Translations under genes and position numbers: made by a program
NCBI GenBank assembly: GCA_964527765.1
Contig: CAZGQR010000004.1
Location: forward strand, 64,083 to 128,082
Length of the DNA stretch: 64,000 nt
Source: an uncultured Planctomycetia bacterium
GTDB lineage: Bacteria; Omnitrophota; Gorgyraeia; Tantalellales; Tantalellaceae
Reading direction: 5' to 3'
The notes under the pieces: model-generated
What the model saw: the letters and a program-made list of their open reading frames with translations, nothing else
Told to the model about the DNA's origin: nothing
Database searches by the model: none
In this document: positions 11,520 to 57,194 of the stretch, one piece after another
Layout: every line of letters starts with the position of its first letter
Numbering within the stretch: the stretch's first letter is position 1

Positions 11520-11542
11520 TGCCGTTTATGAAGGGGTAAGCT

Positions 11543-15506: not shown

Positions 15507-15567
15507 TCCGGACCTCACAGCTTTTAACCTGTGCAAAATCAGAAACACCGAAAGGGAGAACTTCGCT

Positions 15568-16335: not shown

Positions 16336-16339
16336 ATAT

Positions 16340-39606: not shown

Positions 39607-40377
39607 ATGAAATGTGCCATAATGCAACCCACATATTTTCCATGGATCGGATATTTTGATCTATTGTCGCAGGTCGACAAGTTTGTCTTCCTGGATGATG
39701 TTCAGTTGGCCAGACGTAGCTGGCAGGTAAGGAACAGGATAAAAACCGCAAATGGAGAACTTTATCTTACAGTCCCCGTATTGAAGACGAAAAGCAGGGA
39801 TGAGCAGGTGATTTGCGGATCACATATGTGTCCGGAAAAGCAATGGAGGCAGAAACATATAAACTCTATCAGGTTTTCGTATAAAAAGTCCGGATTTTTT
39901 CATGAAATAATTTCCATGGTGGAGGAGCTTATAAATGCAGATACGTCCGACTTATCCACTTTTAATATTAATATCATCAAAAGGATCTCTCGGGGGATAG
40001 GCATCAATACAAATTTTCTCAAAGCATCCGAACTTAAAGGCGTTAGCGGCGCCAAGGACTATCGTCTGGCTTCGATCTGCAAGAAAATAGAATGCGATGA
40101 ATATGTCTCGCCGCCCGGGGCCGCAGATTATATCGAAAAGGAATCTCCGGGGGGCGTATTCCGGATCGAGGGCATAAAACTTTATTACCATAGGTATAGA
40201 CACCCTGTTTATCCTCAGCTTTACGGCGATTTTCTGGAATATATGAGCATTATCGATTTACTGCTTAATTGCGGTTTGGGTGAAAGTCTGCAGATTATAA
40301 AAAAGGGGTCCGTAGAGGCGATCAGCTCTCCGGAATTTCGGAAGAATCATTTTAATGATGAGGAGTCTGATTTATGA
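39607..40377 (+). CDS. WbqC-like family protein (unknown function, polysaccharide loci)
   Basis: MKCAIMQPTYFPWIGYFDLLSQVDKFVFLDDVQLARRSWQVRNRIK matches the WbqC-like family N-terminus. Confidence 0.6.
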   Translation: MKCAIMQPTYFPWIGYFDLLSQVDKFVFLDDVQLARRSWQVRNRIKTANGELYLTVPVLKTKSRDEQVICGSHMCPEKQWRQKHINSIRFSYKKSGFFHEIISMVEELINADTSDLSTFNINIIKRISRGIGINTNFLKASELKGVSGAKDYRLASICKKIECDEYVSPPGAADYIEKESPGGVFRIEGIKLYYHRYRHPVYPQLYGDFLEYMSIIDLLLNCGLGESLQIIKKGSVEAISSPEFRKNHFNDEESDL

Positions 40378-41426
40378 ACAGGGAAATTTGCATAGGCAAC
40401 CGGTCCATAGGGGGAAGGAACCCCCTTTTTGTTGTAGCGGAGATTTCGGCTAATCATGCCCAAAAATTCGATAGAGCGGTCGAATTGATAAATAAAGCCA
40501 AAGAATGCGGCGCTGATGCGGTGAAATTTCAAACTTACACGCCGGATACTTTAACTTTGGACATTGACAGCAAATACTTTCAGATAGAACATCCTGAATG
40601 GGGCGGAAGGACATTGTACAGCCTGTATCAAAAAGCGCATACCCCTTGGAAATGGTTTAAGAAGCTTAAAGAAACGGCTGACAACGTCGGAATTGTATTT
40701 TTTTCCACTGCTTTCGACAGAACTTCAGTCGATTTTCTGGAGGGAATAGGCGTCCCCGTGCATAAAATATCTTCTTTTGAGCTGGTTGACCTCCCCCTTA
40801 TTGAATACGCGGCAAAAACGGGAAAGCCGCTCATTTTATCGACGGGCATGGCGACTATCGCAGAAATAAGAGAAGCGGTAAATGCGGCGAGAAAGGCGGG
40901 AGCAAAGGAAGTCATCCTGCTTAAATGCGCGAGCAGTTATCCCGCTGTTCCGGAAGACATGAACCTGAAAACCATCCTTCATATGAAAGAATTCTTCAAA
41001 TCCCATGTCGGGCTTTCCGATCATACTTTAGGGATAGAGACATCAATAGCGGCCGTATCGCTTGGGGCCGTTATGGTCGAGAAACATTTTACTTTGTCCA
41101 GGAAATTTAAAACGCCTGACAGTTTTTTCTCGATAGAACCGGGAGAATTGAAGCAGTTAGTGAAGAGTGTAAGAATAGCAGAGCGCGCACTGGGAAAAAT
41201 CCAATACGGACCTGTGGAGAACGAAAAAAAGAGCATGGCTTTCAGGAAGTCTTTATTTGCTGCGGAAGATATCGAAAAGGGAGAAGTCTTCACCGATAGC
41301 AATATACGGGCCGTGAGACCGGCCAATGGTTTAAAGCCAAAATGTCTAAAGACTATTTTAGGGAAAAAGGCACGAAAAAAGATAAGAAAAGGGATTCCCT
41401 TGGATCGGACTCATGTCGGGAAGTAG
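40374..41426 (+). CDS. pseI: Pseudaminic acid synthase, PseI (NeuB family with SAF domain)
   Basis: FVVAEISANHAQKFDRAVELINKAKECGADAVKFQTY matches the PseI-type N-terminus (SANH rather than GVNH). C-terminal SAF domain. Confidence 0.85.
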   Translation: MNREICIGNRSIGGRNPLFVVAEISANHAQKFDRAVELINKAKECGADAVKFQTYTPDTLTLDIDSKYFQIEHPEWGGRTLYSLYQKAHTPWKWFKKLKETADNVGIVFFSTAFDRTSVDFLEGIGVPVHKISSFELVDLPLIEYAAKTGKPLILSTGMATIAEIREAVNAARKAGAKEVILLKCASSYPAVPEDMNLKTILHMKEFFKSHVGLSDHTLGIETSIAAVSLGAVMVEKHFTLSRKFKTPDSFFSIEPGELKQLVKSVRIAERALGKIQYGPVENEKKSMAFRKSLFAAEDIEKGEVFTDSNIRAVRPANGLKPKCLKTILGKKARKKIRKGIPLDRTHVGK

Positions 41427-41453: not shown

Positions 41454-43895
41454 ATGCATTATAGAAACAATATGGATTTCAGATTTTCGTCAAAAGCGGA
41501 TGTTCTTGAGTGGCTGAGACCGCGGGTGAAACATTCCTGCGTGGAGAAGCTCTACGTATGCACCGTTGATCGATGGATGAAGGACGCGGACACGGTGTTC
41601 AGGGAAATACAGAAAGAGTTCCCGGAAGGCAGGATTGTTATGAGAAGTTCTTCGCTGCAGGAGGACGGGTTGACCGGTTCCAGAGCGGGATATTTCAAAA
41701 GCGTACTCGACCTTCCGGTCCTGTTTTCCAGGACAGAAGCCGCCGCTGCCGCGATAATCGATTCTTACAAGAGGGCGGAACGCGACGGAACAGGCGGAGG
41801 ACCTGGCACGGACAGGGAGCAGATCCTGGTGCAGTCGCAAACCGGAAATATCCGCGTGAGCGGGGTGGTCTTCACACGTCAGATAGAGACTAACGCGCCT
41901 TATTACGTGATCAATTATGATGATAGGAGCGGCAGGACGGATACGGTTACCGGCGGGATGGAAGGCAAAGTGATATATATTTCACATTTTGCCGATGCAT
42001 CATCCGACGCAAGATGGAGAGGGCTGATACGGGCGGTCAAGGAACTTGAATTCCTGTTCAAGGGGGCGGTCCTCGATATAGAGTTTGCTATTACGGGGGA
42101 AGGTAAGGTGGTCATTTTTCAGGTCAGGCCCCTCGCGGCGAACCGTGATATCGCGATGCCCGAGGACGGGTTTACCAGGCATCTTATAGAGGATATGGTG
42201 AAGAAATTCAGCCGCTTCTCGCAGCGCGTGCCTCATCTGGCCGGCGAGACCACCGTTTTAGGCGATATGCCCGACTGGAACCCCTCGGAGATCATAGGCA
42301 GCCGGCCGAATACTCTTGACTACACGATGTACAGCTTTATCGTGACGGATGAAGTCTGGCACGAAGCAAGAAGCTCTCTTGGGTACTATGACGTCTATCC
42401 CGCGGAACTCATGCTTTCTTTTGGCAAAAAACCCTATATCGACGCAAGGGCGAGCTTTAATTCTTTCACCCCCGCCGATATGCCACATGAGCTCAGGGAA
42501 AAACTGGTGAATTACTATCTGGATAAGCTGAGGAAAAATCCTGCCTATCAGGATAAGGTGGAATTTGAAATATTGTGGACCTGCTATGATTTTTTGACAG
42601 CAAAGAAACTGAATATATTGTCAAAGCACGGGTTCAGCAGCGCGGATATTGACACTTTTTCAAAGGCGCTGAAGGGCCTTACAAACAGCATACTGAAGGA
42701 TTCCCGCGGCATCACGGAACACGACCTGAAACAGGTGAAACTTTTGACCGAGCGGCGGGACAGGATCATGCGGTTTTACGGGAAGAGCGATAAAACGCCC
42801 TGGAATTCGCTCCATACGGCCTACGGCATCCTGCAAAACTGCAAAAGGTTCGGGACATTCCCTTTTTCCAGACAGGCGCGACTGGCTTTTATAGCAAAAA
42901 GTTTTCTCATTAGCCTCAGAAAAGAAGAGGTTGTTTCGGAGGAATTCTACCATGACTTTCTGAACTCGATACGCACCGTAGCTTCCGAATTCAATGATGA
43001 TTTTTATCGTCTGCAGAACGGGGAGCTAGACAAAGATTCTTTCATCGGGCAGTACGGACATCTAAGAGCCGGGACATATGACATCACCACCCCCAGATAT
43101 GATAGCTCTTCCAATCTCTTTGACGGACAGGCCGACGCAAAGGCGGTCCGGCGCCCGATGTACGGTTTTAACGCGCCAAAGAAGGTCCTGAAGAATATTG
43201 ATAAACTGATGGAACTTCACGGCATACACGGGAACGGCGCGTACCTGATGGATTTCATGAGATCGGCCGTCAGGAACAGGGAATGCGCCAAATTCGAATT
43301 TACCAGAAGCCTGAGCGACGCGTTGGAATTGATCGCCGAAGCCGGAAAAATGCTGGGCTTTGACCGTGAGCAATTATGTCACGCGGATCTTCCCACGATC
43401 ATGAAATTTCGCAATCCCGAACACGGCGATTCGGATTATGCCCGGAAGATCATAAAGCAGTCCATAGACAGACATAAGAAGGAAAGAGAATGGTATGACG
43501 CGGTCATTCTCCCTCCCGTGATAATTTCCGAGAGGGATTTTTATTATGTGGAACCTTATGAGGCGATACCGAATTTTATTACGCGCAAGTCCGTAAAGGG
43601 CCGGATCATTACTTTCGACGAGATAAAACACATGAAAGAACATGTTTTAGAGGGCCGTATCGTGCTTCTGGAAAATGCGGATCCCGGGTTTGACTGGATA
43701 TTTACAAAAAGACCTCTGGGGATAGTTACCAAGTACGGAGGGGTGGCTTCCCACATGTCCATAAGATGCGCCGAGTTTGGCATACCGGCCGCGATAGGAT
43801 GCGGCGACGTTATTTATGATGGCCTGAAAAAGGCGAAACTTGTCGAACTGGACTGCATGAGGAAGACCGTAAGGCCGTTAAACAGTCATGGATAA
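41454..43895 (+). CDS. PPDK/PEP-synthase-like ATP-dependent kinase lacking a PEP-binding TIM barrel; candidate L-glutamine kinase (Cj1418-like)
   Basis: N-terminal ATP-grasp/PPDK_N-like region. C-terminal PEP-utiliser swivel domain with phosphohistidine motif GGVASHMSIRCAEFGIPAAIG. Protein ends about 55 aa after the His, so there is no PEP/pyruvate-binding domain, as in small-molecule kinases of this fold. Followed by C26, NTase and APS-kinase-like genes in the same order as cj1418c-cj1415c. Confidence 0.65.
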   Translation: MHYRNNMDFRFSSKADVLEWLRPRVKHSCVEKLYVCTVDRWMKDADTVFREIQKEFPEGRIVMRSSSLQEDGLTGSRAGYFKSVLDLPVLFSRTEAAAAAIIDSYKRAERDGTGGGPGTDREQILVQSQTGNIRVSGVVFTRQIETNAPYYVINYDDRSGRTDTVTGGMEGKVIYISHFADASSDARWRGLIRAVKELEFLFKGAVLDIEFAITGEGKVVIFQVRPLAANRDIAMPEDGFTRHLIEDMVKKFSRFSQRVPHLAGETTVLGDMPDWNPSEIIGSRPNTLDYTMYSFIVTDEVWHEARSSLGYYDVYPAELMLSFGKKPYIDARASFNSFTPADMPHELREKLVNYYLDKLRKNPAYQDKVEFEILWTCYDFLTAKKLNILSKHGFSSADIDTFSKALKGLTNSILKDSRGITEHDLKQVKLLTERRDRIMRFYGKSDKTPWNSLHTAYGILQNCKRFGTFPFSRQARLAFIAKSFLISLRKEEVVSEEFYHDFLNSIRTVASEFNDDFYRLQNGELDKDSFIGQYGHLRAGTYDITTPRYDSSSNLFDGQADAKAVRRPMYGFNAPKKVLKNIDKLMELHGIHGNGAYLMDFMRSAVRNRECAKFEFTRSLSDALELIAEAGKMLGFDREQLCHADLPTIMKFRNPEHGDSDYARKIIKQSIDRHKKEREWYDAVILPPVIISERDFYYVEPYEAIPNFITRKSVKGRIITFDEIKHMKEHVLEGRIVLLENADPGFDWIFTKRPLGIVTKYGGVASHMSIRCAEFGIPAAIGCGDVIYDGLKKAKLVELDCMRKTVRPLNSHG

Positions 43896-44592
43896 TATGT
43901 ATTATGCGATCTCACTGAGCGTCGAGCCGGGCGATGTTCCCCGGGATTTTCTGTATACCGACTATCGCTTTTTTTTCGAGAAGTTCGGATGTAGACTCGT
44001 TTATCTACCCAATCACGCCGGTGCGATTGGATCCTATTTTGACGATTTACCGCTCAGCGGGGTGATATTGTCCGGCGGCAACGATCTGAGCGCCGAGTTC
44101 ACCGGCCAGGTGGATCTTGACATACGTAACCCGGCGCCGGGGCGGGATGCTGCGGAAAAAAAGATACTTGATCTCGCCGTTGCGAGAAAAATGCCCGTGT
44201 TGGGCATATGCCGCGGCATGCAGTTTATAAACTGTTATTTCGGAGGATCTATAACGCAAAAGATCGGAGAGCAAGGGGGTGCGAAACAGCCGCACGTGAA
44301 GCGGAAACATATGATCGCGATCTGTGATAATGAAACGTCTGAATTTTTAGGTGCAAAAGAGATGGAGGTCAATTCTTATCATCATCAAGGCATAAAAAAA
44401 GACCAGGTTGCCGCGGATTTAAAGATAATGGCGATATCTCCCGGGGACGGGATCGTAGAAGCGGTTTATCATCCTTCATTGCCGCTGGTGGGCGTGCAAT
44501 GGCATCCCGAGAGAGAAGGCTCCTCGCCAGAAGTAAATGACAGGTTGATTGAAGCGTTTGTGTGGAGAAAACATCACTGGAAGGATAAATGA
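43888..44592 (+). CDS. Class I glutamine amidotransferase-like / peptidase C26 hydrolase (Cj1417-like candidate gamma-glutamyl-CDP-amidate hydrolase)
   Basis: Nucleophile elbow GICRGMQFIN and His-Glu VQWHPE. Confidence 0.7.
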   Translation: MDNMYYAISLSVEPGDVPRDFLYTDYRFFFEKFGCRLVYLPNHAGAIGSYFDDLPLSGVILSGGNDLSAEFTGQVDLDIRNPAPGRDAAEKKILDLAVARKMPVLGICRGMQFINCYFGGSITQKIGEQGGAKQPHVKRKHMIAICDNETSEFLGAKEMEVNSYHHQGIKKDQVAADLKIMAISPGDGIVEAVYHPSLPLVGVQWHPEREGSSPEVNDRLIEAFVWRKHHWKDK

Positions 44593-45371
44593 TGAAGGCC
44601 ATTATACTTGCCGCCGGTGAAGGAAAAAGGCTGAAACCGTTTGCGGAAAATATGCCGAAATGCCTTATAGAACTTGAAGGCAAGAGTATACTTGACCGAC
44701 AGATAGAGGTAATACGCCGTTGTGGGATAGATGACGTAATAGTCGTAAAAGGGTACATGGCGAACAGGATCAACCGCAAAGATGTCCATTATTATTTTAA
44801 CAAGGATTATGGCACGACAAATATGGTCATGACATTGTGGTGCGCCGAAAAGGAATTGAAGGGTGAGGTAGTCGTTTCTTATGGCGACATCGTATATAAC
44901 GAGGAAGTGCTCCGTAGTCTAATCGATTCCGCCCACGACATATCCGTTGTAGTGGATGTCGCCTGGGAGAAGTACTGGAAAATGCGGTTTGACGACCCCT
45001 TGAAAGATGCCGAAGCTTTTAAGATGGACAGAACAGGACGGATAGAAATTATCGGTCAGAGAGCTGAAAGGATTTCGGATATCGAAGCGGGTTACATAGG
45101 ATTGGTCAAGTTTCGGGGCGGGGGGATGAAAGCTTTTAGGGAATCGTTCTTGAACGCGCGAAACGTTTCCAGGAACGGGGGGAAGGCATGGGGCGCGCCC
45201 CGACCATTCGAAAAATCCTATATGACAGACATGCTCCAGGGGCTGGTCAATGAAGGTCATGACGTATACGGGGTCAAGGTGGAAGGCGGCTGGGTAGAAA
45301 TAGATTCACCCAGCGATTATGATCTGGCGAAAAAGTTGTTTGTGGACGGAAAAATCAAAGCACTGGTTTAA
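44589..45371 (+). CDS. Short-form nucleotidyltransferase (Cj1416-like candidate CTP:phosphoglutamine cytidylyltransferase)
   Basis: MKAIILAAGEGKRLKPFAENMPKCLIEL G-loop signature. 260 aa. Confidence 0.7.
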   Translation: MMKAIILAAGEGKRLKPFAENMPKCLIELEGKSILDRQIEVIRRCGIDDVIVVKGYMANRINRKDVHYYFNKDYGTTNMVMTLWCAEKELKGEVVVSYGDIVYNEEVLRSLIDSAHDISVVVDVAWEKYWKMRFDDPLKDAEAFKMDRTGRIEIIGQRAERISDIEAGYIGLVKFRGGGMKAFRESFLNARNVSRNGGKAWGAPRPFEKSYMTDMLQGLVNEGHDVYGVKVEGGWVEIDSPSDYDLAKKLFVDGKIKALV

Positions 45372-45387
45372 AAAGGAAAGACAGATC

Positions 45388-46677
45388 ATGAAAACCATAT
45401 TTATTGGCGGGATTCAGAGAAGCGGCGGTTCTTTATTGGCGCGTTTATTCGATGGTCACCCGGATATTGCAAGTTATCCCGTGGAATGCAGTTTTCCCGT
45501 GAATAATAAGATCTATCCCGTTTTTGAAAATTATACCGGCATTCCCTTGACCATGCCGTTGTTTGATCCGACGGCTGATAAGGACATTTTTGAGATAACG
45601 AATACCCCTTCTGAAAAACCGAAAGTGATACTTAAATTCGGAAAGGAAAAGGAAGATCTGATAGGCGTGCGCAGGAACTATCTGGAAAAGGAATATTATG
45701 ACACGGTTAAAACCGACTTTGACTTTTTCAGATTCAAAGCGCTTTTTACTTCTTATGCGGAGGTGGCTAAAACAATAGAGGAACTTTACGACGCGAAACA
45801 CAGAGCTTACTTCGCCGCCTGGGATAACGGGATGCATTCCGGGAGCATGAAATTTGTTTCATGGCATTCCAGTTCCGGGATATACCTTACGAATATAGAC
45901 AGATATTTTAGCGAGTTCAAGGATTCATTTTTCATCCACCCGTTACGGGATATTATGGGGTATATTGCGTCTGAAAAAACAAGATTAACGAGGCAATATT
46001 ATGGTTCACGCCGTTTTCCGAAAATGAAAATGCCCAATATTTTTGTCAAGAAATTCAAGAACTATGATCTGGAAGCTCAGATCAGAGGATGGATGGCCAC
46101 GTTGACCCGGGTGGTTCTCCTGCAGGAACGATTCGGGGTGCGGGACAGGTTTTTTGTCGTCAGATACGAAAATATTGCAAATGATGCTGAATCTGTCATG
46201 AGATCTTTATGCGAAAAAATAGGCTTGGATTTTCATAATACTTTGCTTGAACCCACAATAGGCGGTTATCCCTGGGGCGGGAATTCGCACCAGGGCAAAC
46301 AGCGGGGCATTAATAAGGATTTAAGTTCATATTATCCGCAGGTCCTGACATCGCAGGAAATCAGGCTTATTGATAGATCCACGGCGCCCATTAGAGAATA
46401 TCTTGATCGATGCAAAGAGACCCCGGCAGATTTGGGGAAGATTCGTAAAAAGCATTTGTATGATTATGAATATCAGAAAAGATATTTCGACGACGAAGAA
46501 AAACTCTTTTTATATTACGCGCTTGTAAACAGCGGCAGGCGGAAGATAACGGTCAAGAACCCCGACTTTACGGCGATCATCGCTTTTTTGTATAAAAAGA
46601 TAATCCATCTTATTCATATACCACGCTTGCTTAAATTGAGGTTTTTTCACGGATGGGGGAAGCAGAACTATACATAG
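45388..46677 (+). CDS. Sulfotransferase-fold protein (Sulfotransfer_3-like) with PAPS-type 5'-PSB and 3'-PB motifs
   Basis: 5'-PSB loop GGIQRSGGSLLARLF. 3'-PB-like HPLRDIMGYIAS (R-x7-S). Start set at ATG 45388 (MKTIFIGG) after an AAAGGAAAG RBS; the ORF-track extension to 45319 overlaps the upstream gene. Confidence 0.65.
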   Translation: MKTIFIGGIQRSGGSLLARLFDGHPDIASYPVECSFPVNNKIYPVFENYTGIPLTMPLFDPTADKDIFEITNTPSEKPKVILKFGKEKEDLIGVRRNYLEKEYYDTVKTDFDFFRFKALFTSYAEVAKTIEELYDAKHRAYFAAWDNGMHSGSMKFVSWHSSSGIYLTNIDRYFSEFKDSFFIHPLRDIMGYIASEKTRLTRQYYGSRRFPKMKMPNIFVKKFKNYDLEAQIRGWMATLTRVVLLQERFGVRDRFFVVRYENIANDAESVMRSLCEKIGLDFHNTLLEPTIGGYPWGGNSHQGKQRGINKDLSSYYPQVLTSQEIRLIDRSTAPIREYLDRCKETPADLGKIRKKHLYDYEYQKRYFDDEEKLFLYYALVNSGRRKITVKNPDFTAIIAFLYKKIIHLIHIPRLLKLRFFHGWGKQNYT

Positions 46678-46737
46678 AGAGATTGCTCCGCGACATGAAG
46701 ACATGTACGAGCAAAGCGCATTGAAAGAGAGGCTTGT

Positions 46738-47271
46738 ATGGGGCACATAATATTGCTAACGGGTATTTCCGGTTCGGGCAAGACCACGCTGGGGAATGCT
46801 TTGAAAGACGTTCTTACCCGGGAGGGCAGGCGGCCGGTTGAATTTATCGACGGCGACACAACACGTGAGTTTTTGGGTAATGATCTGGGTTATGCCCCGC
46901 GGGACCGGTTGTTGATAACGAAACAGATAGCATACGCGGCGTATTTATTGTCTAAGAACGGCATTGATGTCATTGTGGCCAATATCGCCGGCAGCTATGA
47001 GATCCGGGATTATTTGAGGGGGAAATGGGAACGGTATATACAGATTTTTCTGGATGCCGACATCGAAGACTGTATCAAAAATGACCGCAAGGGCGTTTAC
47101 GGGAAAGCCCTGGAATCGGAAAAACCCTGGCTTTACGGGATAGATATGCTCTATGAAAAGCCGCGTAGCCCCGACTTAACGGTATATCCTTACAAGGAAA
47201 GCGTGAAAGAAAGTCTTAGCAGGATAATAGATTGTTTGACGGGAAGGAAATTTTTCACAGTAAAAAATTAA
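46738..47271 (+). CDS. Adenylylsulfate (APS) kinase-family P-loop kinase (Cj1415-like candidate cytidine diphosphoramidate 3'-kinase)
   Basis: P-loop ILLTGISGSGKTTLGNAL. IDGDTTREFLGNDLGYAPRDR and KGVYGKA align with the CysC DGDNIR...LGFS..DR and KGLYKKA blocks. Confidence 0.8.
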   Translation: MGHIILLTGISGSGKTTLGNALKDVLTREGRRPVEFIDGDTTREFLGNDLGYAPRDRLLITKQIAYAAYLLSKNGIDVIVANIAGSYEIRDYLRGKWERYIQIFLDADIEDCIKNDRKGVYGKALESEKPWLYGIDMLYEKPRSPDLTVYPYKESVKESLSRIIDCLTGRKFFTVKN

Positions 47272-47283
47272 CTTGGGGAGATC

Positions 47284-48240
47284 ATGTCTGGATTCGAGAT
47301 AGAAAGAAAAGCGTTCACCAAAAATCTGGCTTTGATAACCGGGCTTACAAGGTCCGGAAAGTCTATGCTGGGCCCGATAGTTTCCAGTTTCGAAGGTGCT
47401 GAAAACGTAAGACTTAACTATCTCATGGAATTGGTCCCTCCCATGAATAAGATAGAGCTGATAACGGAGGATGTCGCAATTTATCTCATGAGGCATGCTG
47501 TTGATTTCATGCTGTATGACAATATGATAGGACGGAATTCAAATTTTCGGCCTTCGGATTATACGAGCATATGGAGGACAAAGAACCCCGCTAAGTATTT
47601 TCAGCGCTTATTCAGAAAAGAAGGCGATCTTGTTTTTGACGAATTAATGGAAAAAAATATCATTTTTGTTTTGATGTTCCACAATGGACCGTGGTTTGCG
47701 GATATTTTATTCAAAGCTTTTCCGGACATGAAAATGCTGTATGTAAAAAGGAATCCCGTTGATGTGGTGTCCTCATGGTACAAGAAAGGGTATGGCACAG
47801 ATTTTTATGCGAAACCCAGAAACGGGCTTTTAACGATAAAATGGAAAGGCAGGACCCTGCCTTTTTATTCCGCGGGATGGGAGGAAGAATATTGTTCTTT
47901 GGGAGAAGTGGACAGGATCGTATTTACAATAAACAAGATCGAGATGAAATTTAAAGAAACATTGCATGGTCTTTCGGACGCGCAGCGCGAGAACATTATG
48001 GAAGTTTGCTTTGAGAGAATGGTCACAAAGCCGGATATGGTGATCCCTGAGGTCTGTAGATTTTTGGGCACAAATGAGACCGCATACACGCCCAGGGTCC
48101 TTAAGCAGGAGCTTTGTCCGCGGGTTCTTCGCGAAAAAGATCAGGAGGAAAAGTTCAATAAGATCAAGGAAAATTGTTCGTCGAAAGCCGCGGATCTGTT
48201 GGGAGCCATGGTTAAAGGATATAAAGATAACGCAGGATAA
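47284..48240 (+). CDS. Sulfotransferase-fold protein with PAPS-type 5'-PSB and 3'-PB motifs
   Basis: 5'-PSB ITGLTRSGKSMLGPIV. Classical 3'-PB YVKRNPVDVVSSWY. GGGGAG RBS. Confidence 0.7.
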   Translation: MSGFEIERKAFTKNLALITGLTRSGKSMLGPIVSSFEGAENVRLNYLMELVPPMNKIELITEDVAIYLMRHAVDFMLYDNMIGRNSNFRPSDYTSIWRTKNPAKYFQRLFRKEGDLVFDELMEKNIIFVLMFHNGPWFADILFKAFPDMKMLYVKRNPVDVVSSWYKKGYGTDFYAKPRNGLLTIKWKGRTLPFYSAGWEEEYCSLGEVDRIVFTINKIEMKFKETLHGLSDAQRENIMEVCFERMVTKPDMVIPEVCRFLGTNETAYTPRVLKQELCPRVLREKDQEEKFNKIKENCSSKAADLLGAMVKGYKDNAG

Positions 48241-48243: not shown

Positions 48244-50160
48244 ATGAAGTACTGTTTGATAGAAAAATGGCACGCTGATTATTCTCTTCCCAGGGAGTGT
48301 AAAGTCGTGCCTTTGACCACTGAAGCGAGTGATTCGCTTGAGAAATGCGGCGTTGATTATGTGACGTTCCAGGAGTATTTTTCATCGGGCGAGGTTCGCG
48401 GCGACACGGACGGTTATCTTGATTCTCAGCGGGTATGGTTCCGGGAATTTGACCGGTTTGTTTGGAGCGTTTTTCCCGAAGCGGAAAAAATGAAGGTCCG
48501 GTTACCCTCGCTTTACTTTTACAATATAAAACACCTGGTAGATTGCGCCGTGCTGACCGCAAGGATCATCAATAAGTTTCTGGATGTTGTCAAACCGGAT
48601 AAGGTCTGGTTCATCCCGAAGATCCGCGGCAGCGGCAAAATGCATCGGTGGTACTGGTATTCTTTCGACAGAAGTGCCTTCGCGCATTTATTGGAGCCGC
48701 TTTGCCGGAAAAGGGGGATTGCATTCGAAGAGTTGTATGCCGACCAAGAGCAGCCCCCGACGCTAAAAGAAGACACGGTGAAACCCTTCGCTGGAATAAT
48801 GAAAGTTAAAGGCTTGTTCACATCCAGGATCAGAGGTTTTCTTAAAACGGCCAGGGAAGTATGTGCGCAATATCCATATTTTGTTTTCTTTTCGAAACAT
48901 AAAAAAGGCAGCATCCTGGTCGTGAACGTCAAAAATTATCTTTATGACTTTTGCCGAGATTGTCGCAAGAACGGATTCAGCGTGTTCCTGAAAAACGGAG
49001 ATTATGTGCGTAAGCCCTCCTTATTCCCGGCAAAAGAAAAGATCGGTCCGGGAAAAAGCAGCGGCGCGAAATACCCGAACGGTCCTGACAAAGATTCTGT
49101 TATGGATGGTTTCATCCGCAGTGGCGTCATGGACTGGATAAACGAACGGTGTGGACTGGACGTTTCTTCCATGATGTATCCAAGATTTAAATATGTTTTG
49201 TGCGATGTTTTTCCAGAAACACTGAGCTGTATAAAGAGTTTTGTCGATTTTTACAACAGGAATAATATAGATTTTGTTGTTAATTATTCCCTTTCTTCAG
49301 AGGATGAGTTTGCTGCTGCAGCTGCCGCGGCGATCAGCGATTCCACGAAAAGCGTTGGTTTTAGCCATGGCACCGATGCTTATGAGGCAAAACCCAGATT
49401 TTTTCTGGAATACAACCACTATGATTTCTATTTCGTGAATACGAAAGCAGAGGCGGACCACATAAAAGGCCTGGCCGATGGGTATGGTTTTTCAAAGCCT
49501 TCAGCGCATGAATACCCGTATTTCCGGAAACGCTTTTCCCGGATAGCTGAAAAAAGAAGCCGGGCAGAACGACTGAAAAAGACGCGTAAACAAGATAAGC
49601 CGATCGTTCTTTTTGCTCCCGTGATGCGCACAGAGAGGATGCATATGCCCATTGTGAATACTCAGCCACTTCAATGGGATTATTTCAGGTGGCATTACGC
49701 TCTTATTGACTATTTTGCGTCAAGATCCGATTTCAGGTTCGTATGGAAGGCGCTTTTACAGCCCTTGGGTTTCGGGGATACTATCCGTGATCTTTTGCAG
49801 GACAAGCGCTATGGGAACATCAGTTTCAGTTCCGATAAGTTAAGCGAATGGATGATCGCCGCTGACAGAATATTGTGCGATGTTCCCGGAGGGGCGTTTT
49901 ATGAAAGCATTTTCAGCGGGATACCGACGCTGGCTTTTTACCGTCCGAAAGACCAGGAACTCCGCAAGGATGCTTATCATGTTTTCGGCCCGAGTTTACA
50001 GCCATATTCGACCATTGAAGATGGGATCAAAGCGGTTGAGGATTTTCTGGACAGCGCTCCCAAAAGATATATTGTTACAATCCCTCAAGAGCGATCGTCC
50101 GTGCCCGGTATTCTTATGAATGGCGTTCAAGAAAGGCAAGATCATGTCGGAAGAATATAA
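48244..50160 (+). CDS. Hypothetical 638-aa protein with TagF-like (CDP-alcohol phosphotransferase-like) C-terminal pattern
   Basis: PIVLFAPVMRTER (compare TagF KVILYAPTWRD) and IAADRILCDVPGGAFYESIFSGIPTLAFYRP (compare TagF SDILITDYSSVMFDFA..KPIIFY). Same architecture and length as the 20992-22917 protein. Confidence 0.4.
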   Translation: MKYCLIEKWHADYSLPRECKVVPLTTEASDSLEKCGVDYVTFQEYFSSGEVRGDTDGYLDSQRVWFREFDRFVWSVFPEAEKMKVRLPSLYFYNIKHLVDCAVLTARIINKFLDVVKPDKVWFIPKIRGSGKMHRWYWYSFDRSAFAHLLEPLCRKRGIAFEELYADQEQPPTLKEDTVKPFAGIMKVKGLFTSRIRGFLKTAREVCAQYPYFVFFSKHKKGSILVVNVKNYLYDFCRDCRKNGFSVFLKNGDYVRKPSLFPAKEKIGPGKSSGAKYPNGPDKDSVMDGFIRSGVMDWINERCGLDVSSMMYPRFKYVLCDVFPETLSCIKSFVDFYNRNNIDFVVNYSLSSEDEFAAAAAAAISDSTKSVGFSHGTDAYEAKPRFFLEYNHYDFYFVNTKAEADHIKGLADGYGFSKPSAHEYPYFRKRFSRIAEKRSRAERLKKTRKQDKPIVLFAPVMRTERMHMPIVNTQPLQWDYFRWHYALIDYFASRSDFRFVWKALLQPLGFGDTIRDLLQDKRYGNISFSSDKLSEWMIAADRILCDVPGGAFYESIFSGIPTLAFYRPKDQELRKDAYHVFGPSLQPYSTIEDGIKAVEDFLDSAPKRYIVTIPQERSSVPGILMNGVQERQDHVGRI

Positions 50161-50866
50161 ATATTTCAAGAACCAATATCTTGACGACATCAGGGAAAAC
50201 TATTTCAAACCCGTGCTCGATGATGTTTTCAAAAAATACGGGAAGAACATAAAGGTCATGGGGGATGTAGGTTGTGGTAACGGCATATTCAGCACTTATT
50301 TGAAGAGAGAACGCGAAATAACGCTGTGCGGGTTTGACGCCAGCGAGTACGCCCTTGAATGTGCGCTGCGGAAGGGCATGGACAAAGTCTTCTTGAACGA
50401 GGATTTCAGCACGCGGGCGTTGCAGGTAAACGATGCTTATTTTGATTTTGTCCTTAATAAAGATGTCCTGGAACATCTCATGGATCCGGAATTCTTGATA
50501 AAGGAGATCGCCAGGGTGTTAAAACCCGATGGGCTGTTTCTTTTGCACGTTCCCAATGATTTTAACCTGTGGAAGAGGATCCAGTTTGTTTTTTCCAACA
50601 GTATCGATACGTACAGCTATTGCCCCGGCGCGAAGCAGTGGAACTGGCCACACATACGTTTTTTTACGTTTGAAGGCATAAAAGAACTGTTGCACATGCA
50701 TGGTTTTGAGATCATAGAGAATTACAGCTCTTTTTTTGCTCATCGACTTTCGAAAATACACAGGATCCCGGGATATATGCCGGTAGCCAGGTTGCTCGCC
50801 GGCAGATATCCGTCGCACTTCTCTCAGGCGGTGAGCGTTTTAACGAAGAGGGGAAAAAAAGCATGA
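50144..50866 (+). CDS. Class I SAM-dependent methyltransferase
   Basis: Motif I VMGDVGCGNGIFSTYL. FDFVLNKDVLEHL. Start at ATG 50144 preferred over 50120. Confidence 0.65.
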   Translation: MSEEYKYFKNQYLDDIRENYFKPVLDDVFKKYGKNIKVMGDVGCGNGIFSTYLKREREITLCGFDASEYALECALRKGMDKVFLNEDFSTRALQVNDAYFDFVLNKDVLEHLMDPEFLIKEIARVLKPDGLFLLHVPNDFNLWKRIQFVFSNSIDTYSYCPGAKQWNWPHIRFFTFEGIKELLHMHGFEIIENYSSFFAHRLSKIHRIPGYMPVARLLAGRYPSHFSQAVSVLTKRGKKA

Positions 50867-56049: not shown

Positions 56050-57177
56050 ATGAAGATCGAATTTTACAGGCACAGCCTAGAAAAGGAAGATAAAAACGAA
56101 GTGGCAAAAGTCCTGGATTCCGTTTTTTTGACTTCCGGGGAGTGGACAAAGGCGTTTGAGCGGAAACTAGCCGATTATGTAGAAAGCAGATACGCGGTGG
56201 GATTGACTTCCTGCACGAATGCCCTGGAGATCACGTTGAAATATTTCGGAATAGAACAAGGTGACGAAGTCATCACGACGCCCATGTCCTTTATAGCGAC
56301 TGCGAATGCCGTGGAATATTGCGGGGCGAAGCCCGTGTTTGTTGATGTGGAGCCGGACACCGCGAATATCAATGCGGACCTGATAGAAAGCGTGGTCACC
56401 CCGAGGACAAAAGCGATATTACCGGTGCATCTTTACGGGCATATGTGCGATATGGGAAGAATAAGAAAGATCGCTGATAAACACGGCCTGAAAGTTATCG
56501 AGGATGCCGCCCACTGCATGGAAGGTCAAAGAGACGGCATCAAACCGGGACAAGTGGGGGACGCGGCCTGTTTCAGTTTTTACGCCACTAAGAACATTAC
56601 CTGCGGGGAGGGCGGCGCCGTTTCGTGCAATGATCCGGAGATGTATGACTGGTTATTTAAAGCAAGGATGCACGGGATGACCAAGAATGCGGCCGATCGT
56701 TATTCTAAAAAATATGAGCATTATGACATGGACTTTCTGGGGTTTAAGTGCAATATGAGTAATATCCAGGCCGCGCTTTTAATCCATCAGATTGAAAGGA
56801 TCGAGACGTTGCTGTCTGCAAGGCAAAGGATCGCCCAGCGATATGATGAAGCCTTTCTCGGCAATCCTGGTATAAAGGTGCTTGGGACTTTGCCTGGGAC
56901 CAGACACGCCAGGCATCTGTACACGATACTGGTCGATCCACGTAAGAGGGACGAATATATGCACAGGTTGCAGGAAGCGGGCGTCGGTGTCGCGATCAAT
57001 TACAGATCCATCCATCTGATGAAGTATTATCGCCAAAAATACGGGTATAAAAGAGGGGATTTCCCGGTATGCGAAAGGATAGGGGATTCGACTATTTCCA
57101 TTCCTTTTTATCCCAAGCTGAGCGATGAAGAGGCAGGATACATTATTAACGCGGTGAATTCAATGACGAATTCGTGA
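56050..57177 (+). CDS. DegT/DnrJ-family PLP-dependent NDP-4-keto-6-deoxyhexose aminotransferase
   Basis: GLTSCTNALEITL, TPMSFIATANAVEYCGAKPVFVDV, and FSFYATKNITCGEGGAV (PLP lysine region). GGAGGA RBS. Confidence 0.8.
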   Translation: MKIEFYRHSLEKEDKNEVAKVLDSVFLTSGEWTKAFERKLADYVESRYAVGLTSCTNALEITLKYFGIEQGDEVITTPMSFIATANAVEYCGAKPVFVDVEPDTANINADLIESVVTPRTKAILPVHLYGHMCDMGRIRKIADKHGLKVIEDAAHCMEGQRDGIKPGQVGDAACFSFYATKNITCGEGGAVSCNDPEMYDWLFKARMHGMTKNAADRYSKKYEHYDMDFLGFKCNMSNIQAALLIHQIERIETLLSARQRIAQRYDEAFLGNPGIKVLGTLPGTRHARHLYTILVDPRKRDEYMHRLQEAGVGVAINYRSIHLMKYYRQKYGYKRGDFPVCERIGDSTISIPFYPKLSDEEAGYIINAVNSMTNS

Positions 57178-57194
57178 GTCGATCGGGAGGTAAA

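What the first reader, a model, noticed from the sequence alone, without database searches (positions are those of the whole stretch)
41454..47271. MeOPN-type phosphoramidate donor pathway (Cj1418-1417-1416-1415 gene order) embedded in a non-Campylobacter glycan island
Four consecutive + strand genes reproduce the domain architectures and relative order of the Campylobacter jejuni O-methyl phosphoramidate (MeOPN) donor pathway. (1) An 813-aa PPDK/PEP-synthase-like protein has an ATP-grasp N-terminus and a C-terminal swivel phosphohistidine domain (GGVASHMSIRCAEFGIPAAIG) but no PEP-binding TIM barrel; this is the architecture of L-glutamine kinase Cj1418. (2) A C26-type class I glutamine amidotransferase-like hydrolase (GICRGMQFIN, VQWHPE) matches Cj1417. 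(3) A 260-aa nucleotidyltransferase matches Cj1416. (4) After one intervening gene, a 177-aa APS-kinase-family P-loop kinase matches Cj1415. From established biochemistry (Raushel laboratory), this pathway yields 3'-phospho-cytidine 5'-diphosphoramidate, a PAPS-like donor for phosphoramidate decoration of capsular sugars. The cassette here is not in a Campylobacter-like genome context; the GH57 glycogen genes, many radical SAM enzymes and the GC content argue for a different lineage. It sits inside a Pse/Leg nonulosonic acid island. That points to phosphoramidate (P-N) modification of a glycan in an uncharacterised organism, with a distinct set of downstream transferases.
Basis: partly seen in the sequence, partly recalled or inferred. 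Interest (0 to 1): 0.85.

Follow-up and report, generated by a model that had tools for sequence, protein, structure and literature searches.

The report
Phosphoramidate-donor cassette joined to sulfotransferases
An uncultured, Omnitrophota-like bacterium carries the three-enzyme core of the Campylobacter pathway that builds a rare phosphorus-nitrogen sugar decoration. That core is wired to an unusual kinase and two sulfotransferase-type enzymes, so this chemistry is widespread outside Campylobacter, but its last steps here are different and still unresolved.

Summary
A (813 aa) is a full-length member of NCBIfam PRK05849 (841 bits, cutoff 501). It has an ATP-grasp domain, a helical middle domain and a C-terminal swivel-His domain, and no TIM barrel. 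B's best family is the Cj1417 model (gamma-glutamyl-CDP-amidate hydrolase). C is a LicC-like nucleotidyltransferase. The A-B-C trio recurs in 66-71 of 83 related loci, and at least 585 GTDB species carry an A homologue. So the phosphoramidate donor core is well supported, but it is not rare.

The kinase E is not Cj1415-type. It fails both the PRK05541 and the apsK cutoffs and belongs to a separate clade seen only inside such cassettes. In a sister locus it lies directly after an ATP sulfurylase.

The "intervening gene" D and the gene after E (F) are sulfotransferase-fold proteins. Samples chosen without reference to A show that their relatives sit either beside these cassettes or beside ATP sulfurylase/APS kinase with no A homologue. 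They are therefore most likely true sulfotransferases.

Most likely reading: a phosphoramidate-donor module paired with a sulfation module in a nonulosonic-acid glycan island. The phosphoramidate transferase is unidentified. No direct comparison with the C. jejuni proteins could be made.

The parts
41454..43895 (+). A: L-glutamine-kinase-type enzyme (ATP-grasp + helical middle domain + C-terminal swivel phospho-His domain)
   Evidence: NCBIfam NF004508/PRK05849 840.7 bits (cutoff 501), against PEP synthase <=38 and RPH 21 bits. Pfam. JGI names 44-47% identical homologues 'glutamine kinase'. AF2 model pLDDT 85; the best PDB fold match is full-length rifampin phosphotransferase (E 1e-17, 13% id), and PPDK matches only over the ATP-grasp part. 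His767 is invariant.
43888..44592 (+). B: class-I glutamine-amidotransferase-like hydrolase, candidate gamma-glutamyl-CDP-amidate hydrolase (Cj1417-like)
   Evidence: Peptidase_C26 1.2e-38. The best NCBIfam hit is NF045546 GCDPHdlase at 84.6 bits, below the cutoff of 250. Six C26 proteins from other A-linked loci score 81-126 bits on the same model, which is also their top hit. Cys108/His206/Glu208 present. Adjacent to A in 71/83 loci.
44589..45371 (+). C: LicC-like nucleotidyltransferase, candidate CTP:phosphoglutamine cytidylyltransferase (Cj1416-like)
   Evidence: NTP_transf_3 5e-16. Best PDB relative is LicC, 1jyk, 3e-16. Co-occurs with A in 66/83 loci. PGAP names plasmid homologues 'phosphocholine cytidylyltransferase family protein'.
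45388..46677 (+). D: sulfotransferase-fold protein (429 aa), most likely a PAPS-dependent glycan sulfotransferase
   Evidence: Sulfotransfer_3 3e-15. AF2 pLDDT 92; Foldseek top hits are TPST1/2 and the CurM and OLS sulfotransferases (E 1e-6, 13-17% id). The 5'-PSB motif (NRSGGS) and 3'-PB motif (R186...S194) are retained. Of four members sampled by D similarity, three sit next to A-B-C and one (L101) next to ATP sulfurylase + kinase with no A homologue. D also sits in all six cassettes that were found through A or E similarity.
46738..47271 (+). E: atypical APS-kinase-family P-loop kinase ('E-type'), inferred 3'-kinase of the donor and possibly also of APS
   Evidence: APS_kinase 1.4e-32. Below cutoff for TIGR00455 (119.7/138.7), PRK05541 (111.3/127) and PRK00889 (133.6/244). 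Forms a separate clade in the NJ tree and by sub-HMM scores. The CysC motifs are changed in 32-35 of 35 E-type sequences. All 6 E-type members with known context lie in A-B-C-D cassettes. 49% identical to a kinase domain fused to an A homologue (L006).
47284..48240 (+). F: second sulfotransferase-fold protein (318 aa)
   Evidence: Sulfotransfer_1 2.5e-11. TRSGKS and RxPxDxxxSW motifs. In an unbiased metagenome sample, relatives lie next to A cassettes in 10 loci (9 distinct arrangements) and next to Sat/PK/kinase without A in 6 loci. One relative lies between A and B homologues in Leptospira ilyithenensis.
48244..50160 (+). G: LIC12162-family transferase-like protein (638 aa), candidate glycan transferase; a phosphoramidate transferase role is not excluded
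   Evidence: Precomputed PF27859 hit (weak). The L100 orthologue scores 215.5 bits on TIGR04331 'LIC12162 family transferase' (cutoff 225), with a faint PseG-like segment. Conserved directly after F in at least 8 loci, and inside the donor operon in L007/L102. No PDB or Pfam match for the window protein.
50120..50866 (+). H: class-I SAM methyltransferase
   Evidence: Methyltransf_11 4.6e-20. 37.7% identical to the methyltransferase in the same relative position in L088.
50863..52800 (+). I: B12-binding radical SAM enzyme conserved downstream of G in relatives
   Evidence: Radical_SAM 3e-16, and TIGR03975-like 123 bits, below cutoff. Orthologues in L004 (69%) and L007 (48%).
57174..58157 (+). 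Cassette-associated Ubie-type methyltransferase (327 aa), candidate O-methyltransferase of the phosphoramidate
   Evidence: Pfam methyltransferase hits. 59.6% identical to the L088 methyltransferase that lies between the C and D homologues. Orthologues sit inside the cassette in L089, L090, L098, L007/L102 and L113.
40374..41426 (+). NeuB-type nonulosonic acid synthase immediately upstream (context)
   Evidence: Precomputed NeuB+SAF hits. NeuB also flanks the cassette in L004, L089, L098 and L100.

Best explanation
The segment is a composite decoration module in a nonulosonic-acid glycan island.

(1) A phosphorylates the amide N of L-glutamine through its swivel His767. C joins the product to CMP, giving CDP-L-glutamine. 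B removes glutamate, giving cytidine diphosphoramidate. This is the chemistry established for C. jejuni Cj1418/1416/1417, and here it is inferred from family membership and from strong conservation of the gene trio.

(2) E is a divergent APS-kinase-family enzyme seen only in such cassettes. It supplies the 3'-phosphate to make the PAPS-like donor 3'-phospho-CDP-amidate, and it may also phosphorylate APS. This step is inferred from context only.

(3) D and F, which flank E, are sulfotransferase-fold enzymes that keep both PAP(S)-binding motifs. They most likely sulfate the same glycan using PAPS. This is inferred from their relatives' association with ATP sulfurylase and APS kinase.

(4) The enzyme that transfers the phosphoramidate is not identified. 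G (LIC12162-family transferase) is the leading candidate.

(5) The methyltransferase at 57174-58157, which lies inside the cassette in related loci, would O-methylate the phosphoramidate to give a MeOPN-like group.
For: A-B-C:
- A scores 841 bits on PRK05849 (cutoff 501) and matches no other family above 38 bits. Its architecture has no TIM barrel.
- B's top family is the Cj1417 model, as it is for six other A-linked C26 proteins.
- In 83 loci A co-occurs with C26 (71) and the nucleotidyltransferase (66). Homologues 44-47% identical to A are named 'glutamine kinase' by JGI.

E as the pathway kinase:
- An APS-kinase-family gene accompanies A within 10 kb in 42 of 87 loci. Fusions of a kinase domain with an A homologue exist.
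- All 6 E-type members with known context are in A-B-C-D cassettes, and 4 of these were sampled by E similarity alone.
- In otherwise similar clusters (L007/L102, L100, L113) a PRK05541-type kinase replaces E, which suggests the two are interchangeable.
- L088 and L090 carry E plus a second, CysC-like kinase next to a PK-like gene, consistent with one kinase per module.
- E has lost CysC-conserved residues in 32-35 of 35 clade members.

D and F as sulfotransferases:
- Fold and motifs fit.
- L101 has a D member (49.5% id) next to a PK-ATP sulfurylase fusion and a CysC-like kinase, with no A homologue.
- Six F-like loci have Sat/PK/kinase and no A homologue.
- L113 shows the two modules side by side: F-A-kinase-B-C-MT-D-PK/Sat-kinase.

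Methyltransferase.
Against: - No C. jejuni sequence could be obtained, so orthology to Cj1415-1418 rests on NCBIfam models, JGI names and context.
- B is below the equivalog cutoff (84.6 vs 250).
- E sits on the CysC side of a midpoint-rooted NJ tree without bootstrap. Its L004 orthologue directly follows an ATP sulfurylase, with no other kinase in the 20.4 kb fetched. E could therefore be simply an APS kinase.
- If D and F need PAPS, the window provides no sulfate activation. That requires either a dual-use E or unlinked genes.
- D is adjacent to A-B-C in 3 of 4 loci sampled by D similarity, and it is present in all six cassettes found through A or E. F lies inside A operons that carry only a PRK05541-type kinase (L007, L011, L132, L123). 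Both facts fit D and F using the P-N donor instead.
- G has no informative fold assignment.
Confidence: 0.4

Rival explanations
1. Single-donor model. D and/or F are not sulfotransferases in function. They are phosphoramidate transferases that use the PAPS-like 3'-phospho-CDP-amidate made by A, C, B and E, playing the role that Cj1421/Cj1422 play in C. jejuni. No sulfate is involved in this organism.
For: - The window is then self-sufficient: one donor pathway, one 3'-kinase, two transferases, and no sat/cysDN in 64 kb.
- D follows A-B-C within 0-2 genes in 3 of 4 loci sampled by D similarity, and it is present in all six cassettes found through A or E.
- F lies inside donor operons whose only kinase is PRK05541-type and which have no Sat within 10 kb: Leptospira L011, L007/L102, L123, L125, L132.
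- D and F keep the 3'-phosphate-binding motif, which both donors would satisfy.
Against: - L101: a D member at 49.5% identity sits next to PK-ATP sulfurylase and a CysC-like kinase, with no A or B homologue in 21 kb.
- Six F-like loci have Sat/PK/kinase and no A homologue.
- L004 and L113 carry ATP sulfurylase inside the same cluster.
- Every solved structural relative uses PAPS.
Confidence: 0.2
2. E is only an APS kinase that serves D and F. The phosphoramidate branch stops at CDP-amidate, which a CDP-dependent transferase (G or another enzyme) uses directly without 3'-phosphorylation.
For: - E's best NCBIfam models are APS kinases, and it groups on the CysC side of the tree.
- The L004 orthologue directly follows an ATP sulfurylase.
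- The D-E-F order is a typical sulfotransferase/cysC arrangement; compare the Haladaptatus plasmid.
- About 33 of 81 A loci show no kinase within 10 kb.
- CDP-alcohol phosphatidyltransferase-family genes recur in 17 A loci and could use CDP-X donors directly.
Against: - E fails the apsK equivalog cutoff and lacks the Asn, the ISP motif and the Phe that reference CysCs conserve.
- The E-type clade was never seen outside A cassettes (6/6).
- L088 and L090 already have a CysC-like kinase next to the PK-like gene yet keep E.
- E's nearest outgroup includes a kinase domain fused to an A homologue.
Confidence: 0.25
3. A-B-C make a different CDP-activated product, with A phosphorylating some substrate other than glutamine, so no phosphoramidate is formed here.
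For: - A is only about 31-35% identical to the homologues in cultured Proteobacteria.
- B and C fall below all equivalog cutoffs.
- Accessory genes vary widely among the loci: formyltransferase-like, CDP-OH transferases, TagF-like.
Against: - A matches PRK05849 over its full length above the cutoff.
- A glutamine-amidotransferase-type hydrolase is invariably present beside it, which makes sense only for a gamma-glutamyl intermediate.
Confidence: 0.08
4. A is an ordinary PEP synthase/PPDK or a rifampin-phosphotransferase-type resistance enzyme, and the neighbouring genes are unrelated to it.
For: The closest solved fold is rifampin phosphotransferase. PGAP labels homologues 'PEP-utilizing enzyme'.
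Against: - RPH model 21 bits, PEP synthase models <=38 bits, PRK05849 841 bits.
- Only 13% identity to RPH.
- No TIM barrel.
- Tight conserved synteny with B and C.
Confidence: 0.01

Closest known systems
Campylobacter jejuni MeOPN donor pathway Cj1418 (L-glutamine kinase), Cj1416 (CTP:phosphoglutamine cytidylyltransferase), Cj1417 (gamma-glutamyl-CDP-amidate hydrolase), Cj1415 (CDP-amidate 3'-kinase), with Cj1419/1420 methyltransferases and Cj1421/1422 MeOPN transferases
   Same: The same three-enzyme core, by family (A, C, B). The order A-B-C-kinase matches the C. jejuni order (the latter from memory). An APS-kinase-family gene is present, SAM methyltransferases are associated, and the location is a surface-glycan locus.
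   Different: - The kinase belongs to a different APS-kinase clade, not PRK05541-type.
- Two sulfotransferase-fold genes flank it.
- A LIC12162-family transferase is present; no Cj1421/1422 comparison could be made.
- The glycan context is Pse/Leg-type nonulosonic acid rather than a Kps capsule.
- The host is an Omnitrophota-like uncultured bacterium.
- Sister loci add an ATP sulfurylase fused to a pyruvate-kinase-like barrel.
PAPS synthesis plus sulfotransferase modules (CysDN/Sat + CysC + sulfotransferase, e.g. rhizobial NodPQ)
   Same: The D-E-F arrangement (sulfotransferase, APS-kinase family, sulfotransferase). PAP(S)-binding motifs are kept in D and F. Relatives are linked to ATP sulfurylase.
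   Different: No sulfate-activating enzyme in the 64 kb window. E fails the apsK cutoff and lacks the conserved CysC motifs. The module is embedded in a glutamine-kinase cassette.
Rifampin phosphotransferase (RPH-Lm, PDB 5hv1/5fbt) and the PEP synthase/PPDK swivel-His enzymes
   Same: The three-domain architecture of A: ATP-grasp, helical substrate domain, and C-terminal swivel His domain. The predicted fold matches RPH over its full length.
   Different: 13% identity. A different NCBIfam family (21 bits vs 841). No PEP/pyruvate TIM barrel.
Putative MeOPN gene cluster reported in Cobalt Borg (genes 308-311; bioRxiv 10.1101/2024.11.05.622173)
   Same: A non-Campylobacter occurrence of glutamine kinase + hydrolase + cytidylyltransferase in a glycan-decoration region, inferred in silico.
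   Different: That cluster is on an archaeal extrachromosomal element. No kinase or sulfotransferase association was described, and one cytidylyltransferase is fused to PEP mutase.

Membership tests
L-glutamine kinase family (Cj1418 type; NCBIfam NF004508/PRK05849) | Full-length match to the family model above its curated cutoff | tested here: met
   840.7 bits against a cutoff of 501, residues 5-809 on model positions 5-788/789. That Cj1418 itself belongs to PRK05849 is from memory. JGI names homologues 'glutamine kinase'.
L-glutamine kinase family (Cj1418 type; NCBIfam NF004508/PRK05849) | ATP-grasp N-terminus, C-terminal swivel domain with catalytic His, no PEP/pyruvate TIM barrel | tested here: met
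   Pfam. AF2 model and Foldseek. His767 invariant.
L-glutamine kinase family (Cj1418 type; NCBIfam NF004508/PRK05849) | Direct sequence similarity to Cj1418 and ATP-dependent N-phosphorylation of L-glutamine | not testable with these tools
   C. jejuni was not among the 80 loci returned. The Raushel papers are not held. The afdb50 library is unavailable.
gamma-glutamyl-CDP-amidate hydrolase (Cj1417; NCBIfam NF045546) | Score above the equivalog cutoff | tested here: not met
   84.6 bits against a cutoff of 250. It is nevertheless B's best family, and six other A-linked C26 proteins score 81-126 bits on it.
gamma-glutamyl-CDP-amidate hydrolase (Cj1417; NCBIfam NF045546) | Class-I amidotransferase Cys-His-Glu triad and adjacency to the glutamine kinase | tested here: met
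   Cys108/His206/Glu208. Adjacent to A in 71/83 loci.
CTP:phosphoglutamine cytidylyltransferase (Cj1416) | LicC-like nucleotidyltransferase encoded with the kinase and the hydrolase | tested here: inconclusive
   NTP_transf_3; LicC is the best PDB relative; synteny in 66/83 loci. No Cj1416-specific model or sequence was available.
Cytidine diphosphoramidate kinase (Cj1415 type; taken here as NCBIfam NF004041/PRK05541) | Score above the PRK05541 cutoff / membership of the clade of A-linked kinases | tested here: not met
   E scores 111.3 against a cutoff of 127. A-linked kinases from Leptospira, Pseudomonas, Haloferax and Omnitrophota score 153-185. E is a separate clade. That Cj1415 belongs to PRK05541 is from memory.
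Cytidine diphosphoramidate kinase (Cj1415 type; taken here as NCBIfam NF004041/PRK05541) | Genomic linkage to glutamine kinase, hydrolase and cytidylyltransferase | tested here: met
   All 6 E-type members with known context lie in such cassettes. A related kinase domain is fused to an A homologue.
Adenylyl-sulfate (APS) kinase CysC (TIGR00455) | Score above the equivalog-domain cutoff, and the conserved Asn (ENIRR), ISP and FTG motifs | tested here: not met
   119.7 against a cutoff of 138.7. In E-type sequences Asn->I/V in 35/35, ISP->IAG in 32/35, Phe->L/I/V in 33/35; in reference CysCs the counts are 9/10, 10/10 and 7/10. The roles of these residues are from memory.
Adenylyl-sulfate (APS) kinase CysC (TIGR00455) | Sulfate adenylyltransferase available to supply APS | tested here: inconclusive
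   None in the 64 kb window. Present next to the E orthologue in L004.
PAPS-dependent sulfotransferases (D and F) | Sulfotransferase fold with 5'-phosphosulfate and 3'-phosphate binding motifs | tested here: met
   Pfam. D model and Foldseek. Motifs.
PAPS-dependent sulfotransferases (D and F) | Use of PAPS rather than another 3'-phosphonucleotide donor | not testable with these tools
   Context is split: relatives sit with Sat/kinase and no A homologue (L101, L105, L128, L131, L135, L136, L141), or inside A cassettes with no Sat.

The most novel reading that the evidence does not exclude
The sulfotransferase-fold proteins D and/or F are phosphoramidate transferases. They would take the PAPS-like donor 3'-phospho-cytidine 5'-diphosphoramidate made by A, C, B and E and put -P(O)(O-)NH2 (later O-methylated) on a nonulosonic-acid-containing glycan. 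That would be a new reaction class for the sulfotransferase fold. It would also be a non-orthologous solution to the still uncharacterised MeOPN transfer step, present in many uncultured bacteria and archaea and in the culturable Leptospira ilyithenensis.
Probability: 0.2. Interest if true: 0.85.

Novelty: new variant of a known kind. Interest (0 to 1): 0.55.

Why it matters
Reviews still describe the glutamine kinase and MeOPN as specific to Campylobacter (PMC9561416, PMC6429109). Here the donor core turns up in at least 585 GTDB species across bacteria and archaea, which points to widespread P-N decoration of surface glycans that nobody has examined chemically.

The window shows one specific variant:
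- a non-orthologous kinase;
- tight pairing with sulfotransferase-fold enzymes and, in sister loci, with an ATP sulfurylase fused to a pyruvate-kinase-like domain;
- a Pse/Leg-type glycan context.

It gives concrete candidates (G, D, F) for the phosphoramidate transfer step, whose enzymatic pathway a 2025 paper still lists as to be elucidated in C. jejuni (PMC12409886). It also points to a culturable organism in which to test them, Leptospira ilyithenensis.

Tried and rejected
1. Getting C. jejuni Cj1415-1422 sequences for direct BLASTP.
- The single genome-contig scan returned the best 80 of at least 585 matches, none from Campylobacter.
- Five Raushel papers are not held.
- The PDB holds none of these enzymes.
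- Plasmid tblastn found no Campylobacter record.
- The afdb50 fold library was unavailable.

2. The idea that the D family is exclusive to glutamine-kinase cassettes. It held for 3 loci sampled by D similarity, plus 6 cassettes that had been found through A or E. It was then broken by L101, which has ATP sulfurylase + kinase and no A homologue.

3. The idea that F is specific to the donor operon. An unbiased metagenome sample showed F-like genes about as often with Sat/PK/kinase alone.

4. The idea that G could be recognised as a Cj1421-like or TagF-like enzyme. A profile search of the PDB and Pfam scans gave nothing usable. G-like genes are confined to the Omnitrophota-like subgroup.

5. Clean three-way classification of the kinases. 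Several Sat-adjacent kinases (L128, L136, L141) score equally on all three sub-HMMs, and L131 has a PRK05541-like kinase next to Sat. Clade membership is therefore not a safe proxy for substrate.

6. Literature checks. A search for the roles of APS kinase residues found nothing usable, and searches for PRK05849/PRK05541 were uninformative.

It was redone with 5 sequences.

Full report
WHAT IS THERE

- A, 41454-43895, 813 aa: a PEP-utilizers mobile domain at residues 733-802, a weak PPDK_N hit, and nothing after the swivel domain.
- B, 43888-44592: Peptidase_C26/GATase.
- C, 44589-45371: NTP_transf_3.
- E, 46738-47271: APS_kinase.

The gene right after E (F, 47284-48240) is a Sulfotransfer_1 protein. 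G (48244-50160), H (a SAM methyltransferase), I (a B12-radical SAM enzyme) and a GT1 glycosyltransferase follow. Gaps or overlaps between successive genes run from -41 to +60 nt, so the block is operon-like.

The window is part of JGI metagenome contig Ga0309772_1000088 (146.7 kb). The closest homologues of A come from Omnitrophota MAGs. Upstream lie GH57 glycogen genes. From about 19 kb there is a glycan island of lower GC with two NeuB genes, two CMP-sugar synthetase-type genes, WbqC, aminotransferases, dehydratases and radical SAM genes.

THE DONOR CORE (A, C, B)

A matches NCBIfam NF004508/PRK05849 over its whole length at 840.7 bits (cutoff 501). PEP synthase models reach at most 38 bits, and the rifamycin phosphotransferase model reaches 21 bits. 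JGI names homologues that are 44-47% identical 'glutamine kinase'.

An AlphaFold2 model (pLDDT 85) shows an ATP-grasp domain, an all-helical middle domain and a C-terminal swivel domain. Its best solved match is full-length rifampin phosphotransferase (E 1e-17, 13% identity). PPDK aligns only over the ATP-grasp part, so there is no PEP/pyruvate TIM barrel. His767, in the GGVASH motif, is invariant in 15 diverse homologues.

B's best NCBIfam family is NF045546, the model for gamma-glutamyl-CDP-amidate hydrolase (Cj1417). It scores 84.6 bits, below the 250-bit cutoff. Six C26 proteins from other A-linked loci (Leptospira, Vibrio, Azospirillum, Omnitrophota and two uncultured loci, one with an archaeal-type fused A) score 81-126 bits on this model, and it is their top hit too. 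The cutoff therefore seems tuned to Campylobacter. Cys108/His206/Glu208 are present.

C's closest solved relative is LicC.

In 83 non-redundant loci, the A homologue is accompanied within 10 kb by the C26 protein in 71 and by the nucleotidyltransferase in 66.

The chemistry assigned to these families (Gln + ATP gives N-phospho-Gln; + CTP gives CDP-Gln; then CDP-amidate + Glu; then 3'-phosphorylation) is taken from the C. jejuni work as summarised in PMC11800397 and PMC6429109. It was not tested here.

HOW WIDESPREAD IT IS

The single scan of GTDB species representatives found at least 585 species with an A homologue. They include Omnitrophota, Planctomycetota, Leptospira ilyithenensis, Pseudomonas, Cohnella, Lachnospiraceae, Desulfovibrio, Haloferax, Nitrosopumilus and many DPANN archaea. 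Plasmids of Vibrio alfacsensis, Azospirillum and others carry it too.

In DPANN archaea the A homologue is fused to a cytidylyltransferase-like domain, and sometimes also to an APS-kinase domain.

Two reviews in the searchable library (2019 and 2022) still call the kinase and MeOPN specific to Campylobacter. A 2024 Borg preprint is the only paper I found that notes a non-Campylobacter cluster.

THE KINASE E

E is an APS-kinase-family protein, but it passes no curated cutoff: TIGR00455 apsK 119.7/138.7, PRK05541 111.3/127, PRK00889 133.6/244.

Four A-linked kinases from diverse loci pass PRK05541 (153-185 bits) and fail apsK. E. coli CysC and a Sat-adjacent archaeal kinase pass apsK.

An NJ tree and sub-HMM scores separate three groups: PRK05541-type, CysC-like, and an 'E-type' clade of about 40 proteins that are 53-68% identical to E. 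The tree has no bootstrap support, and E-type falls on the CysC side of the midpoint root.

E-type sequences have replaced residues that the reference CysCs conserve: Asn of ENIRR to I/V in 35/35, ISP to IAG in 32/35, and Phe of FTG to L/I/V in 33/35. The PRK05541-type clade has also lost the Pro and the Phe. That these residues contact APS is from memory.

Context:
- All six E-type members whose neighbourhood I could see lie in A-B-C-D cassettes. Four of them were sampled by E similarity alone.
- The nearest outgroup includes a kinase domain fused to an A homologue, 49% identical to E.
- In otherwise similar clusters (L007/L102, L100, L113) a PRK05541-type kinase takes E's place.
- L088 and L090 carry E plus a second, CysC-like kinase next to a pyruvate-kinase-like gene.

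Against this, in the sister locus L004 (A 66% identical, E 63% identical) E directly follows a 729-aa protein that fuses a PK-like domain, PUA_2 and ATP sulfurylase, and no other kinase is seen in the 20.4 kb fetched.

I conclude that E is most likely the donor's 3'-kinase and may also serve APS. This is inference.

THE SULFOTRANSFERASE-FOLD GENES D AND F, AND G

D's model (pLDDT 92) matches tyrosylprotein sulfotransferases and the CurM and OLS sulfotransferases at 13-17% identity. It keeps the 5'-phosphosulfate loop (NRSGGS) and the 3'-phosphate motif (R186...S194). F keeps TRSGKS and RxPxDxxxSW. D and F are only remotely related to each other (hhalign probability 52%).

At first the context suggested that both depend on the P-N pathway.
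- D follows A-B-C in all six cassettes found through A or E, and in three of four loci sampled by D similarity.
- F lies between the A and B homologues in Leptospira ilyithenensis, and inside the operon in L007.

Two further tests weakened this.
- The fourth locus sampled by D similarity (L101, a D member at 49.5% identity) sits beside a PK-ATP sulfurylase fusion and a CysC-like kinase, with no A or B homologue in 21 kb.
- An unbiased metagenome sample of 65 F-like loci gave F next to A cassettes in 10 loci (L102, L109, L110, L112, L113, L123, L125, L132/133 with the same arrangement, L156). It gave F next to Sat/PK/kinase without an A homologue in six (L105, L128, L131, L135, L136, L141).

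L113 shows both modules in a row: F-A-kinase(PRK05541-type)-B-C-methyltransferase-D-PK/Sat-kinase(CysC-like).

The simplest reading is that D and F are genuine sulfotransferases, and that sulfation and phosphoramidate modules are repeatedly co-located in these nonulosonic-acid islands. Sulfate-activation genes lie within 10 kb of A in about 9 of 95 loci.

G belongs to the LIC12162 transferase family. The L100 orthologue scores 215.5 bits on TIGR04331 (cutoff 225), with a faint PseG-like segment. G is conserved right after F in at least eight loci, and it lies inside the donor operon in L007/L102. Its fold could not be assigned.

A Ubie-type methyltransferase lies inside the cassette in L088, L089, L090, L098, L007/L102 and L113. 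Its window orthologue is at 57174-58157, 59.6% identical to the L088 protein.

MODEL AND RIVALS

Best model (confidence 0.40): A, C and B make CDP-amidate. E 3'-phosphorylates it, and perhaps APS too. D and F sulfate the glycan with PAPS. An unidentified enzyme, with G as the leading candidate, transfers the phosphoramidate. The 57174-58157 methyltransferase methylates it.

Rivals:
- D/F are the phosphoramidate transferases that use the PAPS-like donor (0.20). This is attractive because the window would then need no sulfate activation, but L101 and the F sample contradict it.
- E is only an APS kinase, and CDP-amidate is used directly (0.25).
- The cassette makes another CDP-activated product (0.08).
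- A is a PEP synthase or rifampin-phosphotransferase-type enzyme (0.01; refuted).

COMPARISON WITH WHAT IS KNOWN, AND NOVELTY

The core is the known C. jejuni donor pathway in a new lineage.

The variant features are:
- a non-orthologous kinase clade;
- flanking sulfotransferase-fold genes;
- a LIC12162-family transferase;
- a Pse/Leg-type glycan context;
- in relatives, an ATP sulfurylase fused to a pyruvate-kinase-like barrel.

I therefore rate it a new variant of a known kind, of moderate interest. The main value is the evidence that P-N glycan decoration is widespread, plus testable candidates for the uncharacterised transfer step.

LIMITS

- No C. jejuni protein sequence was available, so all 'Cj14xx-like' statements rest on NCBIfam models, source names and synteny.
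- That PRK05849 contains Cj1418 and PRK05541 contains Cj1415 is from memory.
- Loci L007-L086 were retrieved through A similarity, so co-occurrence counts from them are conditional on A being present.
- The kinase tree is a simple NJ tree.
- Only 64 kb of the genome was searched for sulfate-activation genes.

Noticed in passing
L004:14174-16363; L101:11287-13479; also L022, L023, L032, L105, L113, L135: A roughly 730-750 aa fusion of a pyruvate-kinase-like barrel, PUA_2 and ATP sulfurylase recurs in Omnitrophota and in DPANN/'Methanosarcinales'-labelled archaeal MAGs, usually followed by an APS-kinase-family gene. The standalone L090 PK-like protein scores 259 bits on TIGR01064 (below cutoff) and lacks the PK C-terminal domain. 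The fusion may regenerate ATP from PEP to pull PAPS synthesis. The PK-like part also occurs alone next to kinases in L088 (split), L090, L098, L099 and L100.
   Followed up: partly
P0065, P0092 (L006:9001-12393); P0053-P0120: In DPANN archaea the glutamine-kinase homologue is fused N-terminally to a cytidylyltransferase-like domain (PF01467), and sometimes also to an APS-kinase domain. A separate C-like nucleotidyltransferase and a C26 hydrolase are still encoded next to it. The role of the extra cytidylyltransferase domain is unknown.
   Followed up: partly
L022:20933-21652 and 16 other loci; L098:8325-9104; L099:9195-10004: CDP-alcohol phosphatidyltransferase-family membrane proteins recur next to the cassette in 17 loci, mostly archaeal. 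They could use CDP-amidate directly as a CDP-X donor, for example to make a phosphoramidate head group on a lipid or glycan.
   Followed up: no
L005/L011 (Leptospira ilyithenensis 201400974, NZ_RQHV01000061.1): about 8190-16680: A cultured organism carries: PRK05541-type kinase, a 201-aa ORF, a formyltransferase-like gene, the A homologue, an F-type sulfotransferase-fold gene, the B and C homologues, and a 588-aa putative transferase. No ATP sulfurylase lies within 10 kb. This is a tractable system for testing what F does.
   Followed up: partly
L096 (Vibrio alfacsensis plasmid NZ_CP140104.1): 4672-16743: cysD, cysN and an SLC13 permease lie divergently next to a 995-aa A homologue with an N-terminal extension. 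The B and C homologues, a CDP-glycerol glycerophosphotransferase-family gene and a 539-aa hypothetical follow. This is another link between sulfate activation and the cassette, here with a TagF-like candidate transferase.
   Followed up: partly
window:28587-29600 and 40374-41426; 32979-33674 and 37212-37925: The window holds two NeuB-type synthases and two CTP_transf_3 (CMP-nonulosonate synthetase-type) genes. Together with an Epimerase_2 gene at 29597-30778, this suggests two different nonulosonic acid pathways in one island.
   Followed up: partly
window:893-3967: A 1024-aa protein fuses a GH57 domain to a starch/glycogen synthase (Glyco_transf_5 + GT1). A GH57 amylase/4-alpha-glucanotransferase, a GH57 branching enzyme and GlgC follow.
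   Followed up: no
window:18001-20000: GC falls to 0.40 here, against about 0.52 upstream and about 0.45 in the island that follows. This probably marks the island boundary.
   Followed up: no
window:50863-52800: The B12-radical SAM protein I gives sub-threshold hits to P-methyltransferase families (Sden_1168 family 82 bits, PhpK family 59 bits), among other B12-rSAM methylases. C also gives a weak hit to the Sden_1164 family. A link to phosphorus chemistry is possible but was not examined.
   Followed up: no
L040:15111-15860 (19 loci); L008:8740-10017 (14 loci); L084:7502-8089 (13 loci): Other families recur beside the cassette in loci that lack sulfotransferase-fold genes: a formyltransferase-like 249-aa protein, a 425-aa protein with a faint GDSL-lipase hit, and a 195-aa protein with no family. 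These may include the transferases used in those lineages.
   Followed up: no
L128, L131, L136, L141: Some Sat-adjacent kinases score equally on the CysC-like, PRK05541-like and E-type sub-HMMs, and one (L131) is PRK05541-like. Clade membership in the APS-kinase family is therefore not a reliable guide to substrate.
   Followed up: partly
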